Shown: positions 57,272 through 60,495, counted from the stretch's first letter. The stretch: DNA of 64,000 bases from an uncultured Acidobacteriota bacterium (GCA_902826795.1 CADEGD010000004.1:94155-158154), one strand, 5' to 3'. Numbers and translations are program-made. The notes: generated from the letters alone by a model not told the origin.

Positions 57272-57336
57272 TAAATACGGGATGTTATTGTTCCGCTCCA
57301 TTTCGTGGTGTGCCAATTTGTTCCATTCGGAACAGA

Positions 57337-58008
57337 TCACAGGCTCTTTGCGACCTCCTTTTGCCTCAACGCTTTCAGGCAGCGATTGACCGTCGTCGGC
57401 CCGACGCCAAGTTCTTTGGCGATAGCACGCTGCGTCATCTTTTCTTTCGCAAGCTGCTCGACTCGTTCGGCAAACTCCGCTTGGAGCGCGTGGCCGTAGC
57501 TCCAGCCGATGTGAGAGCGTTCGTCGGTCAGGGTTTCGAACCCAAACCCTAGAAAATTCTTTTCCTTGCCGATTCGGACCGAAGCGACCTCAGTCTCGGC
57601 GTCACGGTCGGGCGTGTAACGGTGCTTGAGCGGTTTTATGTACCGTATGTTCTTGCCGCGGCGTGAAGCTCCGATCGCGAACATGCTCTCGACGAAAACC
57701 GACAGCATTTTCGAGCCGTTGATATGCGCCAGTTCGATCGGCTGATATGGCGGACGCTTTTTCGTGTGGGCCAGCACAAGGATCGAGATTTTCAGTTCTT
57801 TCTTTAATTGAACAAGTGTTTTCATCAAGCGCTGGGCGTTAGGCGAGCTTTCAACCCGCGTCTTATCAAGCATCGCCTGCTGCTCCGCGTTCAGCTTTAT
57901 CGGCGGCGGCTCATACGGCTTTTCATTCCCGCCGTACAGATGCGGGTACGACTCTCGTAACTCTTCCTCGGTATCTAGCGAATCAAAATCGTCCATATCA
58001 TTCGTCAC
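57337..58008 (-). pseudogene. AAA_25/RepA-like RecA-fold ATPase remnant (C-terminal half) + resolvase-type HTH
   Basis: 223 aa with a GTG start. Retains ..LKISILVLAHTKK.. and later strands but has no Walker A or B. C-terminal HTH: MTQRAIAKELGVGPTTVNRCLK. Confidence 0.5.
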
Positions 58009-58142
58009 ACGATCTAAAACGATCGGACGACTATGATGTCATATGTTGTAAGGATTGTAAAGCGTTTGGTGCATGGGACGCGGACGTTTGCACGGAATCA
58101 GCGTGTTTACGAACGCTCGAAACCATTCCTGCAATGACTATG

Positions 58143-58178
58143 GTTGAGTTAAGAGGTTTAGTTGAGTTATGAGGTTTA
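58143..58178. repeat. 18-bp tandem direct repeat x2
   Basis: GTTGAGTTAAGAGGTTTA at 58143-58160 and GTTGAGTTATGAGGTTTA at 58161-58178. The second copy overlaps the stop codon of 58176..58988. Confidence 0.85.
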
Positions 58179-58988
58179 AATGTTAGGGGTTGCCGCTTCT
58201 GTCTCTACCATTTCAACTCTAAACTTCTCGTATGATCGTCTGCCGCCAGTGTCAGGAGCACAATTGAGACTTGTCATGGCGTCAATAATGAAAACTCGGT
58301 CGACGGTTTTGATGTAGTTTCTGCTGTGGACATCTCTAATTAGGTGGTTCGAACTGGTGAATTTTTCTGGATCGGGGGTAGCGAAAAGACCACCTTCTTT
58401 CATTCTTGCAGTCAAAGCCTTTGGATCGTCATGTCCTAGCTCTCCAATTATAAACGGCTGTCTCAGCACAAAACGGAAACTCCCGATAGAATCTCGGGTG
58501 AACCCCACCAACTCGTACGCTGTCTCGGGAAATAGAGCGTTGAAGAGCGAAACTCGGTCGTCGAGGGTTTGAAGTGGTGAAGAGTCGGCAAAACGCGCTG
58601 ATTTAAGAACAAAATCGGGGTTCGAGTCTTCGTAAACGATGGCCTCAAACCCCTCAGCTATTTGCGGATATTCCGTATCTAGATCTTCGAACCAAATCCC
58701 TTCATGTTTGGCATATGCTTCTAACGCTTCTTCGGATCGCTGTACCGTACTCCGTCGGGATTCCCCTTCTGGACTTGAGATCTCTTCTGCTCCAGCGATA
58801 AGGGACGCTTCGACATTTCGACAACCGCCAAGAAGGCGCCCTCGTTCTTCAAAGTCATTAAGCCGGACGATTCGGCACGCGCCAGATAGGATCCAGTCTG
58901 CAATTTCTTTGACACGGTCATAGTCAACCCCTCCATCAAAAGTATACAGACAAGTCAAAGAAAAGTGAATACCTGAGTCCATAAGCAT
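58176..58988 (-). CDS. hypothetical protein with cryptic protein-kinase-like fold motifs
   Basis: 270 aa. Ordered motifs: EGFEAIVYE (G-loop-like), FVLK129 (beta3 Lys), LFPE (alphaC Glu), D219-VHSR-N224 (DxxxxN), IID236. Confidence 0.5.
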   Translation of the reverse strand: MLMDSGIHFSLTCLYTFDGGVDYDRVKEIADWILSGACRIVRLNDFEERGRLLGGCRNVEASLIAGAEEISSPEGESRRSTVQRSEEALEAYAKHEGIWFEDLDTEYPQIAEGFEAIVYEDSNPDFVLKSARFADSSPLQTLDDRVSLFNALFPETAYELVGFTRDSIGSFRFVLRQPFIIGELGHDDPKALTARMKEGGLFATPDPEKFTSSNHLIRDVHSRNYIKTVDRVFIIDAMTSLNCAPDTGGRRSYEKFRVEMVETEAATPNI

Positions 58989-59012
58989 CCGTTATGAGGG
59001 CGACTCGGTCTA

Positions 59013-60239
59013 TTACCAAATGAGGTCAGGAGCATCCTCCAAATGCCGAAGAACGAACTTGCCAAACATCGGTACGGCGAAACAATACTTTCCGTGTCGA
59101 GTCCGGAAAATCAGTCCAAGTCTGGTGAGAGAGGTTAAAATAGCCGAAACGCGACTGCTTGCGAACGGCTTGATCAAGTACGTTTCTGACGCGGCAACGA
59201 TCTCGCTAACCGTGAACTCACCATCGTTAATACCCATCTGAGCTATTACCTTTAGGACGTCGCGTTGACGATCCGTTACCAGTCCCCAACGCCCCTGAAA
59301 AAAGTCCGAGTCGAGTTTTCGCAGTATCTCCTCGACCGGAATCGCACTGAGCTCGCCTTCATTTTCATGCTGCTGTACCCAAGTGTCGTATGCTTCTTTA
59401 CAAATAAACTGGATGAAGAATGGATATCCACCCGATATCTCGCAAACGGTATTAATTGATTTCTCGGAGAACGGAAACGGACATTGGGTAAGTTGAAGAG
59501 GTACCTCGATTGCCTCGCGAGTCTCTTTGGCAGATAGGCGATCGAGGAAGATGACATGAAACATCCGCTCCGTGTAAGTTCGAGCCTCCGTTAACCTAGT
59601 CTGTATCGTCGGCAATCCGGTCAAAGCAAGCATGAATGGCACTCCTTTTCTCTGAATCGACTGGAACACATCGAGCAAAAGTGACATCGGATATCGATCC
59701 TTTGAAGCGTTATCGGCCAAGTTCTGCGCTTCATCATAGGCAAAGACGATCCCTTTTTTGTTCAAATGTCGAACGGCAACTGCAACCGCCTCAAGTACCG
59801 CTTTAAGCTTGTCCGAATGGAGACCTGGAGTCTCCTGATAGAGGTGCATTAGCCTGTTATAACTCCACACCACGTTCTTAGGTTGACTCCCGGAAAAGCC
59901 AGCCGATTCTTCCACCACCGTTTGGGTGATCCCAGAGGTGACAATAGATAGATCTGCCAGGAGCCGGATCACCAAGTTGTCCTCACTCACGCTGACAGAT
60001 TCGGAAAGCTCGGTCCCGCCGACCCATAACCAACCCTCCCGAATTGCTATGGGTTTCAGCGTTTCCAACAGAACCGTCTTGCCGACTCCCCGCAATCCCG
60101 TAATCAGAGGATTACTAAGTATCGTCTCCTGATTCAAAAGAGCCTTGAACTTGGCAATATCGTCCTCACGCCCCGCGAGGTGAAGTGGCATGTGTCCTGC
60201 ACCGGGACGATACGGATTCTTAAAGACTAGCTGTGTCAT
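59013..60239 (-). CDS. ORC/Cdc6- or Arch_ATPase-like P-loop NTPase with C-terminal winged helix
   Basis: 408 aa. NPYRPGAG..LAGRE lead-in, Walker A GLRGVGKT, Walker B-like IVFAYDEAQ. C-terminal wHTH-like tail (FTVSEIVAAS...LTSLTRLGLIFRTRHGKY). Confidence 0.75.
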   Translation of the reverse strand: MTQLVFKNPYRPGAGHMPLHLAGREDDIAKFKALLNQETILSNPLITGLRGVGKTVLLETLKPIAIREGWLWVGGTELSESVSVSEDNLVIRLLADLSIVTSGITQTVVEESAGFSGSQPKNVVWSYNRLMHLYQETPGLHSDKLKAVLEAVAVAVRHLNKKGIVFAYDEAQNLADNASKDRYPMSLLLDVFQSIQRKGVPFMLALTGLPTIQTRLTEARTYTERMFHVIFLDRLSAKETREAIEVPLQLTQCPFPFSEKSINTVCEISGGYPFFIQFICKEAYDTWVQQHENEGELSAIPVEEILRKLDSDFFQGRWGLVTDRQRDVLKVIAQMGINDGEFTVSEIVAASETYLIKPFASSRVSAILTSLTRLGLIFRTRHGKYCFAVPMFGKFVLRHLEDAPDLIW

Positions 60240-60438
60240 CGTAACAGTTCGTTAGGAGCATCTATGATTTCACATCGGCACGTGAAATAATAGCAAACTA
60301 TAATTTCATAGTCAACTGTTACGAGATGTGAGTTTGTGGCTCAATAATCGCTTCTCTGTTGTCCTTGCATTCAACTTGACTTGAATAGGTTGTGGAATGA
60401 ACGAGCCAAGACTTTCTGATTGAAAGGCGACGCAACAA

Positions 60439-60462
60439 AAGGCTGCCGGTTAGGGCAGCCTT
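60439..60462 (-). terminator. intrinsic terminator of the ECF sigma gene
   Basis: AAGGCTGCC pairs with GGCAGCCTT. On the minus strand it is followed by TTTTGTTG. Confidence 0.7.
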
Positions 60463-60495
60463 GGGCTTGATGCTTGAGTTGAACGAGTGTGGTAC

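What the first reader, a model, noticed from the sequence alone, without database searches (positions are those of the whole stretch)
57272..60495. Low-GC islet pairing an ORC/Cdc6-like ATPase-wHTH gene with a kinase-fold gene beside a decayed RepA-like gene: candidate undescribed conflict/defence module
A ~3.2-kb block lies between the 3' end of a saccharopine-dehydrogenase gene and the terminator of an ECF sigma gene. By hand count it drops to about 40-50% GC, against about 58-68% in the flanks. All three genes are on the minus strand.

- **59013..60239** encodes a 408-aa P-loop NTPase with Walker A GLRGVGKT, DEAQ in the Walker B position, and a C-terminal winged helix.
- **58176..58988** starts only 24 nt downstream. 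It encodes a 270-aa protein whose motif order fits a protein-kinase-like fold.
- **57337..58008** follows a 167-nt spacer that carries an 18-bp tandem repeat. It is the C-terminal half of a RecA-fold RepA/AAA_25 ATPase plus a resolvase-type HTH.

A sensor-like NTPase tightly coupled to a signalling or effector enzyme, in an AT-rich islet next to plasmid/phage debris, is the usual footprint of anti-phage systems. I do not recognise this pair as a named system.
Basis: partly seen in the sequence, partly recalled or inferred. Interest (0 to 1): 0.72.

Follow-up and report, generated by a model that had tools for sequence, protein, structure and literature searches.

The report
Mobile ORC-like ATPase plus kinase cassette
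A 3.2-kb piece of foreign DNA in a soil acidobacterium carries a DNA-binding ATPase gene tightly coupled to a stripped-down protein kinase of a type normally found in phage and plasmid "weapon" proteins; the pair is real, mobile and conserved, matches no named system, and its function is untested.

Summary
All three ORFs, the 24-nt and 167-nt spacers and the 18-bp x2 repeat are where stated. The GC contrast is real but overstated: 0.49 in the insert against 0.53 in the rest of the window.

A syntenic relative has an empty site, so window 57273-60436 is an insertion between the saccharopine dehydrogenase (SDH) stop codon and a shared terminator.

- **Gene 1** is an ORC/Cdc6-like AAA+ ATPase with a winged helix (AF2 pLDDT 84; best Foldseek hits archaeal Orc1/Cdc6 and SSO1545).
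- **Gene 2** is a stand-alone Kinase-PolyVal protein (PF18762, E 9.5e-24) with all catalytic residues intact.
- **Gene 3** is the C-terminal part of an AAA_25/RepA-like protein plus an HTH.

The pair recurs with 1-24-nt gaps in at least five Pyrinomonadaceae/Acidobacteriota loci, four of them seen in full and in different contexts. It shares a promoter/operator and is under purifying selection. No PADLOC model hits it.

The "sensor plus effector in a defence island" picture is only partly supported. The ATPase belongs to a huge cross-phylum family (>7,200 hits, phrog_6841) that is almost always a solo gene next to housekeeping genes. That family carries its own conserved palindromic operator pair (CTAAATTTAG, 18-nt spacing). 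Only this one clade has the kinase.

Best reading: an autoregulated, mobile conflict module. It is a new combination of known parts.

The parts
57273..60436 (.). 3,164-bp inserted islet (gene 3 + kinase + ATPase + promoter region), absent from the syntenic site of a relative
   Evidence: blastn of the window against L200: homology stops at 57272 and resumes at 60437. L200 has SDH and ECF sigma ~75 nt apart. Lowest-GC 3.16-kb segment of the window.
59013..60239 (-). ORC/Cdc6-like AAA+ ATPase with C-terminal winged helix-turn-helix (408 aa); Walker A 48-55, Walker B D169-E170
   Evidence: Pfam AAA_16 at 35.8 bits, above the gathering score. phrog_6841 E 7e-54. AF2 pLDDT 83.6. Foldseek top hits 2qby_A Orc1/Cdc6 E 6e-11 and 2fna_A SSO1545 TMq 0.55. 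More than 7,200 homologues.
58176..58988 (-). Stand-alone Kinase-PolyVal protein (270 aa): conserved N-terminal ~85-aa extension plus a minimal kinase core with E115, K129, Q177, D219, N224, D236
   Evidence: PF18762 E 9.5e-24. The listed residues are invariant across 31 divergent stand-alone members and present here. The profile finds 1,275 representative clusters, many inside 1,000-7,500-aa proteins. The weak model retrieves only protein kinases. dN/dS 0.15-0.22.
57337..58008 (-). Remnant of an AAA_25/RepA-like gene (C-terminal part, no Walker A or B) with a C-terminal HTH
   Evidence: 40% identity, E 2e-33, to residues 102-265 of an AAA_25 protein at L113:4002-4940. Weak phrog_239 primase/helicase hit. 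HTH hits at residues 179-221. No N-terminal remnant in the 167-nt spacer.
60287..60315 (-). Sigma-70-type promoter of the cassette (TTGACT - 17 nt - TATTAT, TG-extended)
   Evidence: Best promoter-like site in the region, 10 of 12 matches. Conserved in four pair loci.
60298..60311 (-). Operator repeat 1 (CTATGAAATTATAG) inside the promoter spacer
   Evidence: The motif RAAATYATAG occurs only twice in 64 kb, both here and 36 nt apart. Conserved in L001, L003 and L111. It is the clade's variant of the family-wide CTAAATTTAG pair.
60262..60271 (-). Operator repeat 2 (GAAATCATAG), 36 nt downstream of repeat 1, between the -10 and the start codon
58143..58178 (.). 18-bp x2 tandem repeat overlapping the kinase stop codon; function unknown
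   Evidence: TRF 94% match, score 65. Unique in the window and absent from other pair loci.
60441..60460 (.). Host terminator hairpin (GGCTGCC-N6-GGCAGCC) shared by SDH and ECF sigma; marks the right edge of the insertion
   Evidence: Present in L200 directly after SDH; sequence read.

Best explanation
**What it is.** The islet is a horizontally acquired insertion. Its functional core is a self-contained, autoregulated two-gene operon.

**Gene 1.** This is an ORC/Cdc6-type AAA+ ATPase whose winged helix binds a pair of palindrome-like repeats overlapping its own promoter. That makes it an ATP-dependent DNA-binding switch.

**Gene 2.** This is translationally coupled to gene 1. It encodes a catalytically intact minimal protein kinase of the Kinase-PolyVal family, a domain otherwise used in phage and conjugative-element polyvalent proteins.

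**Proposed mechanism (inferred).** In the resting state the ATPase represses the operon and holds or fails to activate the kinase. A trigger such as foreign or damaged DNA, or a phage protein, changes its nucleotide or oligomeric state. The kinase is then expressed or activated and phosphorylates host or invader proteins, arresting growth or blocking the invader. This would be a conflict module of the abortive-infection or addiction type, similar in logic to HipBA-like kinase systems.

**Shown:** the insertion; both folds; intact catalytic residues; conservation of the pair with 1-24-nt gaps in different contexts; the shared promoter and operator; purifying selection; decay of kinase copies that lack the ATPase.

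**Inferred:** DNA binding to the repeats; control of the kinase by the ATPase; the trigger; the targets; a defensive role.
For: - **Insertion.** Empty site in a relative, and anomalous GC3.
- **Folds.** ATPase; kinase.
- **Pair conserved.** Gaps of 24, 1, 13 and 2 nt in the window, L001/L007, L003/L008 and L111, each between different genes, plus L114.
- **Shared promoter and operator.** The TTGACT-17-TATAAT promoter and two repeats are shared while the flanks differ.
- **Autoregulation is family-wide.** 89 of 96 ATPase loci have CTAAATTTAG upstream and 54 have a pair at exactly 18 nt. Density is 12/kb against 0.14/kb, and the core is 85-100% conserved in genomes of 35-72% GC.
- **Selection.** Kinase dN/dS 0.15-0.22; ATPase dN 0.14-0.19 with saturated dS.
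- **Dependence.** Both kinase copies without an ATPase (L112, L113) are frameshifted, whereas ATPase-only genes are abundant and intact.
- **Clade signature.** QTRLT replaces [LF]PKLV next to invariant R220 in kinase-linked ATPases.
- **Mobile-element neighbours.** RepA-like remnant, IS1-like and IS200-like transposases, and BrnT and PIN genes in some loci.
- **Prophage carriage.** The ATPase lies in prophages at an accessory-gene position.
- **Precedents.** Orc1/Cdc6 homologues as damage-activated regulators (PMC10123103); a kinase plus DNA-binding partner acting in defence (DS-6, PMC13092281).
Against: - No experimental data exist.
- No PADLOC model hits either protein.
- The pair loci are not in defence islands.
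- The ATPase works as a solo gene in thousands of genomes with no effector beside it, so it need not be a sensor for an effector.
- The pairing is confined to one bacterial family. 84 other kinase loci and 75 other ATPase loci lack it.
- Kinase-PolyVal domains are described as weapons of invading elements rather than of hosts (PMC5512222).
- The kinase structure model is poor (pLDDT 47).
- Operator binding by the winged helix is inferred from sequence conservation only.
Confidence: 0.45

Rival explanations
1. Regulatory add-on. The kinase's substrate is the ATPase itself. Phosphorylation, for example at the clade-specific Thr214/Thr217 next to R220, tunes the ATPase's oligomerisation or DNA binding. 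The pair is then simply a phospho-regulated version of whatever the solo ATPase does, and has no separate effector function.
For: - The ATPase is complete and functional without a kinase in thousands of genomes.
- Kinase-linked ATPases share a unique QTRLT patch that introduces two Thr residues.
- Their operator also diverged, with a 36-nt instead of 18-nt spacing and a longer palindrome.
- An Orc1/Cdc6 homologue is reported to be activated, possibly by post-translational modification (PMC10123103).
- Minimal kinases such as OspG depend on a bound partner (structural neighbour).
Against: - No direct evidence of phosphorylation.
- The Thr residues could equally form a docking surface.
- Kinase-PolyVal domains elsewhere are effector modules in multi-effector proteins (PMC5512222).
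- This does not explain why the module is mobile and compositionally foreign.
Confidence: 0.2
2. Offensive or selfish cargo of a mobile element. The cassette belongs to, or is left over from, an integrated plasmid- or phage-like element (RepA-like gene, IS elements). It serves that element, for example through host takeover, anti-defence by broad phosphorylation as with the T7 kinase, or post-segregational killing, rather than serving the host.
For: - Kinase-PolyVal is typical of phage and conjugative-element polyvalent proteins. All five viral-contig hits lie in 1,106-3,757-aa proteins (PMC5512222).
- The ATPase family is phrog_6841 and occurs in 20 IMG/VR contigs.
- AAA_25/RepA-like genes lie beside the cassette in two independent loci.
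- Transposases are adjacent in L111 and L113.
- The T7 kinase disarms defences by phosphorylation (PMC13645617).
Against: - In four pair loci no intact mobile element surrounds the cassette, yet both genes remain intact and under purifying selection.
- The RepA-like gene is truncated and has host-like GC3, unlike the cassette.
- No match to the kinase in 72,556 plasmids, and only one distant ATPase match in 50,697 phage records.
Confidence: 0.2
3. Chance adjacency or non-functional debris. The two genes are unrelated passengers that happen to lie together and are decaying.
For: The neighbouring gene 3 is a truncated remnant. Two kinase copies elsewhere are frameshifted.
Against: - The same order and 1-24-nt spacing appear in at least five loci, four of them seen in full and in different contexts, with a shared promoter.
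- Reading frames and catalytic residues are intact.
- dN/dS is about 0.15-0.2.
Confidence: 0.04

Closest known systems
Kinase-PolyVal (Pfam PF18762; Iyer, Burroughs, Anand, de Souza & Aravind 2017, PMC5512222)
   Same: - Gene 2 matches the model at E 9.5e-24, well above the cut-off.
- It has the described hallmarks: Glu before strand 2 (E115), Gln in the last N-lobe strand (Q177), intact Lys/Asp/Asn/Asp catalytic residues, and no C-lobe.
- Stand-alone versions were already noted by those authors.
   Different: - Described mainly inside giant polyvalent proteins of phages and conjugative elements in Verrucomicrobia-Chlamydiae and Bacteroidetes.
- Here it is a 270-aa chromosomal gene in Acidobacteriota.
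- It is coupled to an ORC-like ATPase, a partnership not seen in 84 other kinase loci.
Archaeal Orc1/Cdc6 and the archaeal ATPase_2/SSO1545 family (PDB 2qby, 2v1u, 1fnn, 2fna)
   Same: Same overall architecture (AAA+ base, lid and C-terminal winged helix) over the full length in Foldseek. It binds, by inference, short dyad-symmetric repeats located next to its own gene, as Orc1/Cdc6 binds ORB elements (general knowledge).
   Different: - Only 13-16% sequence identity.
- No Pfam Cdc6 or ORC family match; it reaches only the generic AAA_16.
- The repeats overlap a promoter rather than flanking an AT-rich unwinding element.
- There is no evidence of a replication role.
- The family is bacterial and prophage-borne and horizontally mobile.
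HipBA-type kinase toxin-antitoxin and defence pairs (e.g. DS-6 in DefensePredictor, PMC13092281)
   Same: A two-gene operon with the DNA-binding partner first and a Ser/Thr-type kinase second, putative autoregulation at an operator in the promoter, and a mobile, patchy distribution.
   Different: - The kinase fold family differs: HipA is PF07804-like, not Kinase-PolyVal.
- The partner is a 408-aa AAA+ ATPase rather than a small HTH antitoxin.
- That partner exists on its own in thousands of genomes.
- No toxicity data exist.
SNJ2 Orf8 / Sulfolobus Orc1-2: Orc1/Cdc6 homologues acting as DNA-damage-activated transcription regulators (PMC10123103)
   Same: An ORC-like ATPase with a winged helix used as a signal-responsive regulator on a mobile element, with activation proposed to involve post-translational modification.
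   Different: Those are archaeal and part of a three-gene lysogeny switch with no kinase encoded alongside. No sequence-level relationship was tested beyond the fold.
STAND/AAA_16 defence NTPases (Avs, nSTAND families)
   Same: N-terminal AAA_16-type P-loop domain. There is a weak nSTAND6 hit (E 9e-4) and Avs4 appears among distant Foldseek hits.
   Different: - The nSTAND6 hit is below the gathering score.
- There is no C-terminal repeat or sensor domain and no fused effector.
- The best structural matches are ORC/Cdc6 proteins, not STAND proteins.
- No PADLOC hit.

Membership tests
Kinase-PolyVal (PF18762) | Match to the Pfam model above the gathering score (27 bits) | tested here: met
   84.6 bits, E 9.5e-24, residues 85-241 against model positions 4-158 of 160.
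Kinase-PolyVal (PF18762) | Intact ATP-binding and phosphotransfer residues, with Glu before strand 2 and Gln in the last N-lobe strand (PMC5512222) | tested here: met
   E115, K129, Q177, D219, N224 and D236 are invariant in 31 divergent members and present in the window protein. The catalytic-loop/DFG stretch aligns to the PI3K DRHxxN...IDFG motif, though weakly at E 0.2.
Kinase-PolyVal (PF18762) | Loss of the canonical kinase C-terminal subdomain | tested here: inconclusive
   Only ~35 residues follow D236, so by length there is no room for a C-lobe. However, the AF2 model is poor there (pLDDT below 50). Minimal kinase OspG is among the structural neighbours.
Kinase-PolyVal (PF18762) | Protein kinase activity | not testable with these tools
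   Requires a biochemical assay.
ORC/Cdc6-like AAA+ ATPases | AAA+ core with Walker A, Walker B and a lid, followed by a C-terminal winged helix | tested here: met
   GLRGVGKT at 48-55 and DE at 169-170. AF2 secondary structure shows the alpha/beta core, a helical lid, and H-T-H plus a beta-hairpin at 344-387. Full-length Foldseek alignments to 2qby_A, 2v1u_A and 1fnn_A.
ORC/Cdc6-like AAA+ ATPases | Sequence membership of a Cdc6/Orc1 family model | tested here: not met
   Only the generic AAA_16 passes its cut-off. The MCM_C winged-helix hit is E 0.031. No NCBIfam Orc1/Cdc6 model hits. PDB profile search gives nothing below E 0.1. It therefore works and folds like ORC/Cdc6 but is not a member by sequence.
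ORC/Cdc6-like AAA+ ATPases | Replication-origin function | not tested
   The repeats lie in the promoter and no AT-rich unwinding element was identified.
Known anti-phage defence systems (PADLOC-DB v2.0) | Significant match of any component to a system model | tested here: not met
   Best E-values are 0.013 (ATPase) and 0.044 (kinase); only HTH-level hits for gene 3. DefenseFinder was not available.
Known anti-phage defence systems (generic criteria) | Enrichment next to known defence genes (defence islands) | tested here: not met
   Four pair loci lie between housekeeping genes, with TA genes near one and IS elements near two. Of 20 solo-ATPase downstream neighbours, 13 matched a Pfam family: 11 ordinary cellular genes, one type I restriction R subunit and one group II intron fragment. 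The sample is small and no formal enrichment statistic was computed.
AAA_25 / RepA-like ATPases (gene 3) | RecA-fold core with Walker A and B | tested here: not met
   Gene 3 aligns only to the C-terminal part of an AAA_25 protein. It has no Walker motifs and no Pfam AAA_25 hit. It is a remnant, not a functional member.
Type II toxin-antitoxin (HipBA-like) | Kinase toxicity neutralised by the upstream DNA-binding partner | not testable with these tools
   Only indirect evidence: both kinase copies lacking the ATPase are frameshifted.

The most novel reading that the evidence does not exclude
The ORC/Cdc6-like ATPase-wHTH family (>7,200 homologues, phrog_6841) may be an undescribed, self-regulated single-gene conflict element. 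It is spread across most bacterial phyla and prophages together with its own CTAAATTTAG operator pair. Under this reading it is an immune sensor or a selfish DNA-binding switch. The Pyrinomonadaceae cassette would then be the first case in which it has captured an effector, a polyvalent-protein kinase, giving a new two-gene defence or abortive-infection system.
Probability: 0.2. Interest if true: 0.75.

Novelty: new variant of a known kind. Interest (0 to 1): 0.5.

Why it matters
If the cassette is a working conflict module, it would show a host-side or element-side use of a kinase domain so far known only from bioinformatic descriptions of phage and plasmid polyvalent proteins. It would also give that domain a tractable two-gene context in which to find its substrates.

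The analysis also exposes a very large, cross-phylum family of solo ORC-like DNA-binding ATPases that carry a conserved operator and have no assigned function. Knowing what they sense would annotate thousands of "ATP-binding protein" genes. It may also reveal a bacterial counterpart of the regulatory Orc1/Cdc6 proteins of archaeal viruses.

Tried and rejected
- **Swappable effectors.** I looked for a conserved partner or alternative effectors next to 75 other ATPase homologues. Clustering of 1,974 neighbouring ORFs found none. Of 20 tightly coupled downstream ORFs scanned with Pfam, 13 matched a family (11 ordinary cellular genes, one type I restriction R subunit, one group II intron fragment) and 7 matched nothing. 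Idea rejected.\n- **Hidden kinases.** A narrow and a broadened kinase HMM found no divergent kinases beside those ATPases.\n- **ATPase beside other kinases.** Among 85 kinase loci only the close relative L114 has the ATPase. Stand-alone kinases elsewhere have heterogeneous neighbours.\n- **ATPase-kinase fusions.** None among the 148 best kinase representatives.\n- **Terminal repeats or target-site duplication.** Nothing convincing at the insert ends.\n- **Kinase structure.** The alignment was too shallow (pLDDT 47), so I relied on the HMM and motifs. The fold search on that model is only weakly supportive.\n- **PDB sequence searches.** Uninformative for both proteins.\n- **Viral structure library, phage GenBank and plasmid searches.** No annotated close relatives.\n- **CapK/CapS.** Considered as a relative and rejected because the kinase fold differs.\n- **Literature search on DUF234/SSO1545.** Returned only unrelated DUF234x papers.\n- **Wide kinase alignment A5.** Too divergent for the search for related loci; replaced by A6.\n- **tRNA genes.** None in the window.

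
Full report
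**1. Observation**

The ATPase-kinase gap is 24 nt and the kinase-gene 3 spacer is 167 nt.

Tandem Repeats Finder reports an 18-bp unit in two copies at 58143-58178 (94% match, score 65). It overlaps the kinase stop codon. It is unique in the window and absent from other loci that carry the pair.

The compositional claim is right in direction but exaggerated. The insert has GC 0.492 against 0.534 for the rest of the window. Local 300-nt values are 0.44-0.54 against 0.53-0.60 in the flanks. It is still the lowest-GC 3.16-kb segment of the window (0 of 305 sliding windows lower). At third codon positions the contrast is clear: 0.44 for the kinase and 0.54 for the ATPase, against 0.66-0.70 for gyrB, the saccharopine dehydrogenase (SDH), the ECF sigma factor and the aminotransferase. 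Gene 3 is host-like at 0.67.

**2. The islet is an insertion**

A relative whose SDH is 83% identical (L200, a 1.78-Mb contig) has the same gene order: gyrB, 3D-domain gene, small ORF, SDH, ECF sigma, a 254-aa ORF and a class V aminotransferase. There, SDH and the sigma gene are only ~75 nt apart.

Nucleotide homology between the window and L200 stops at 57272, the SDH stop codon. It resumes at 60437, immediately before a terminator hairpin that both share (GGCTGCC-N6-GGCAGCC, 60441-60460). Window 57273-60436 (3,164 bp) is therefore inserted DNA.

I found no terminal inverted repeats or target-site duplication. The window contains no tRNA gene.

**3. Gene 1: ORC/Cdc6-like ATPase with a winged helix**

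- **Sequence.** Pfam gives AAA_16 above its cut-off, with sub-threshold hits to AAA_22, nSTAND6, ATPase_2 and the MCM C-terminal winged helix. Walker A is GLRGVGKT (48-55) and Walker B is ...VFAYDEAQ.
- **Structure.** An AlphaFold2 model built on 31 homologues is confident (pLDDT 83.6, pTM 0.78). It shows an alpha/beta core, a helical lid and a C-terminal helix-turn-helix with a beta-hairpin wing.
- **Fold search.** Foldseek against the PDB puts archaeal Orc1/Cdc6 (2qby_A, E 6e-11; 2v1u, 1fnn, 1w5s) and the archaeal ATPase SSO1545 (2fna_A, TMq 0.55) on top, with full-length alignments. Eukaryotic ORC/Cdc6 follows, and TnsC, RFC and Avs4 are more distant.

By sequence, however, the protein is not a member of any Cdc6/Orc1 family model.

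**4. The ATPase family is huge, mobile and normally solo**

- **Size and spread.** The word-indexed search returned 7,204 significant hits, many at ~56% identity from unrelated bacteria. A scan of one genome per species found at least 554 loci. The best 80 span Acidobacteriota, Nitrospirota, Planctomycetota, Verrucomicrobiota, Actinomycetota, Chloroflexota, Pseudomonadota, Bacteroidota, Gemmatimonadota and others at 51-58% identity.
- **Phage carriage.** The family is phrog_6841 (unknown function, E 7e-54) and occurs in 20 IMG/VR contigs. In one prophage it is a solo gene between the primosomal and Holliday-junction-resolvase genes and the terminase and portal genes.
- **Neighbours.** Outside the query's clade nothing is conserved next to it. 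Clustering 1,974 neighbouring ORFs gave no recurrent partner. I scanned the 20 most tightly coupled downstream ORFs with Pfam. Thirteen matched a family, and eleven of those are ordinary cellular genes: lipoamide-dehydrogenase-like, OMP decarboxylase, MutS, a proteasome subunit, AIR-synthase-related, serine dehydratase, HAD, an ABC ATPase and others. The other two are a type I restriction R subunit and a group II intron fragment. Seven matched nothing.

The "sensor NTPase with swappable effectors" pattern typical of many defence systems is therefore absent.

**5. A family-wide operator (found in passing)**

In 89 of 96 non-redundant loci, the 150 nt upstream of the ATPase start codon contain the palindrome CTAAATTTAG (two mismatches or fewer). 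In 54 loci there are two copies exactly 18 nt apart. The density is 12 per kb upstream against 0.14 per kb elsewhere in the same loci.

The core TAAATTTA is 85-100% conserved at both sites, while the 8-nt spacer is not (27-42%). This holds in genomes whose local GC ranges from 0.35 to 0.72. In 25 of the 54 loci a TTGACA-like -35 ends 15-18 nt before the first palindrome, so that palindrome overlaps the -10.

The simplest reading is that this is the cognate operator of the winged helix and that it travels with the gene, giving autorepression. That is an inference.

**6. Gene 2: a stand-alone Kinase-PolyVal protein**

- **Family match.** Pfam PF18762 matches at E 9.5e-24 (residues 85-241).
- **Defining features.** Iyer et al. 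2017 (PMC5512222) describe a monophyletic kinase group from polyvalent proteins of phages and conjugative elements. It has lost the C-lobe but keeps the active site, with a Glu before strand 2 and a Gln in the last N-lobe strand. They also noted stand-alone versions.
- **Catalytic residues.** In an alignment of 31 divergent stand-alone members, E115, K129, Q177, D219, N224 and D236 are invariant, and the window protein has all of them.
- **Distribution.** An exhaustive profile search found 1,275 representative clusters. Of the best 148, 60 are 400 aa or shorter and 65 are longer than 1,000 aa, up to 7,495 aa.
- **N-terminal extension.** The profile match covers the whole protein. It includes an N-terminal ~85-residue segment (EExGRxxGGxRNVEAS) that Pfam does not model.
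- **Structure.** The AlphaFold2 model is poor (pLDDT 47). Even so, all 50 of its best PDB neighbours are protein kinases, including the minimal effector kinase OspG. Scores are weak (E 4e-3 or worse).
- **PDB sequence hits.** The only hits align DxHxxN...IDx to the PI3K catalytic loop and DFG motif, and they are not significant (E 0.2).

**7. The pairing is real but confined to one clade**

| Locus | Source | Gap between ATPase and kinase | Flanking genes |
|---|---|---|---|
| Window | this contig | 24 nt | SDH / ECF sigma |
| L001 = L007 | Pyrinomonadaceae MAG | 1 nt | phosphoglucomutase / ribosomal S21-SurE |
| L003 = L008 | Acidobacteriota MAG, 4.5-Mb contig | 13 nt | iPGM / GNAT-PIN, with BrnT nearby |
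| L111 | Pyrinomonadaceae MAG | 2 nt | IS1-like transposase / HflX |
| L114 | short contig starting in the ATPase 3' end | not measured | contig too short to show |

Two further pairs are implied by matching contig lengths.

- **Extent of homology.** Nucleotide homology among these loci covers only the two genes plus ~90 nt upstream.
- **Shared promoter and operator.** That upstream stretch holds a conserved TTGACT-17-TATAAT promoter with a repeated TAT(A/G)A(A/C)AT(T/C)ATAG element, once in the spacer and once 36 nt downstream. In the window, RAAATYATAG occurs only at these two places in 64 kb. This is a diverged, longer version of the family operator.
- **Selection.** Kinase dN/dS is 0.15-0.22. 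ATPase dN is 0.14-0.19 with saturated dS.
- **Absence elsewhere.** 75 other ATPase loci have no kinase, even when searched with a broadened HMM. 84 other kinase loci have no ATPase.
- **Decay without the ATPase.** The two kinase copies of this clade that lack an ATPase (L112, L113) are frameshifted.
- **Clade signature.** Kinase-linked ATPases share QTRLT in place of [LF]PKLV at residues 213-217, next to invariant R220.

**8. Gene 3**

Only HTH models hit it, at residues 179-221, with resolvase HTH_7 among many. There is a weak match to a phage primase/helicase family.

Residues 53-211 are 40% identical (E 2e-33) to residues 102-265 of an AAA_25 protein that lies ~2 kb from the decayed kinase in L113. 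Gene 3 has neither Walker motif, and the 167-nt spacer holds no N-terminal remnant.

"Decayed RepA-like gene plus HTH" is therefore correct. Its recurrence near the cassette in two independent loci hints at a shared carrier element, but n = 2.

**9. Known systems**

PADLOC-DB v2 gives nothing significant. NCBIfam gives nothing specific. The name "Kinase-PolyVal" does not occur in the searchable literature, and the defining paper describes no ATPase partner.

Conceptual neighbours are:
- HipBA-like kinase toxin-antitoxin and defence pairs such as DS-6;
- Orc1/Cdc6 homologues acting as damage-activated regulators in archaeal viruses;
- broad anti-defence phosphorylation by the T7 kinase.

CapK/CapS uses a different kinase fold.

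**10. Interpretation**

I commit, at about 0.45, to a mobile, autoregulated conflict module. The ORC-like ATPase is a DNA-binding, nucleotide-dependent switch that represses its own operon. It controls a minimal protein kinase that acts as effector, giving growth arrest or invader blocking, or addiction.

Rivals and my confidence in each:
- The kinase merely phospho-regulates the ATPase (0.2).
- The cassette is offensive or selfish cargo of a mobile element (0.2).
- The two genes are non-functional debris (about 0.04).

The defence-island framing is not. The combination is undescribed but built from known parts and restricted to one bacterial family, so I rate it a new variant of a known kind with interest 0.5.

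The more general lead is the solo ATPase family with its universal operator.

Noticed in passing
L004-L110 (upstream of ATPase homologues); variant at window 60262-60311: Across phyla, the solo ORC-like ATPase gene is preceded by the palindrome CTAAATTTAG, usually twice at exactly 18-nt spacing and overlapping a TTGACA-type promoter. 89 of 96 loci have it and 54 of 96 have the pair, at 12/kb against 0.14/kb background. The core is 85-100% conserved even in 70%-GC genomes. It is probably the family's own operator.
   Followed up: yes
window 59013-60239, residues 213-217: Kinase-linked ATPases share QTRLT where solo homologues have [LF]PKLV. This introduces two threonines next to invariant R220. 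They could be phospho-acceptors or a kinase-docking patch.
   Followed up: partly
window 58734-58988 (kinase residues 1-85); L159-L193: The N-terminal ~85 residues of the kinase protein (motif EExGRxxGGxRNVEAS) have no Pfam model. They accompany the kinase inside polyvalent proteins and also occur alone in many 66-140-aa ORFs in metagenomes.
   Followed up: partly
L120:137-583, L121:29-475, L124:87-599: In a different lineage, stand-alone Kinase-PolyVal genes (43-46% identical) are directly preceded by an abutting S24 (LexA/UmuD-like) peptidase ORF. This may be another two-gene kinase module.
   Followed up: partly
L113:4002-7800 and L112:7001-7800: These are decayed copies of the cassette: a frameshifted kinase with no ATPase. 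In L113 it lies next to an IS200-like Y1 transposase and an AAA_25 gene 40% identical to window gene 3.
   Followed up: partly
window 60239-60249 and 60314-60324: A perfect 11-bp inverted repeat (TCGTAACAGTT / AACTGTTACGA) brackets the cassette promoter, from the -35 to the start codon. It is not conserved in L001, L003 or L111.
   Followed up: partly
window 57337-58008 versus 58176-60239: Gene 3 has host-like GC3 (0.67), whereas the kinase (0.44) and ATPase (0.54) do not. The RepA-like remnant and the cassette may therefore have different histories, even though both are absent from the empty site in L200.
   Followed up: partly
L098:2949-14295: In a ~44-kb IMG/VR prophage the ATPase homologue sits between the replication/recombination genes and the terminase and portal genes, a typical accessory-gene slot.
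   Followed up: partly
L143:4363-5703: An AAA_14-DUF4143 ATPase (another ATPase plus winged-helix family) lies divergently 223 nt from a stand-alone kinase relative. This is a single case and may be coincidence.
   Followed up: no
L047 and L067: One Planctomycetaceae MAG carries two copies of the solo ATPase on different contigs, so the family can be multi-copy within a genome.
   Followed up: no
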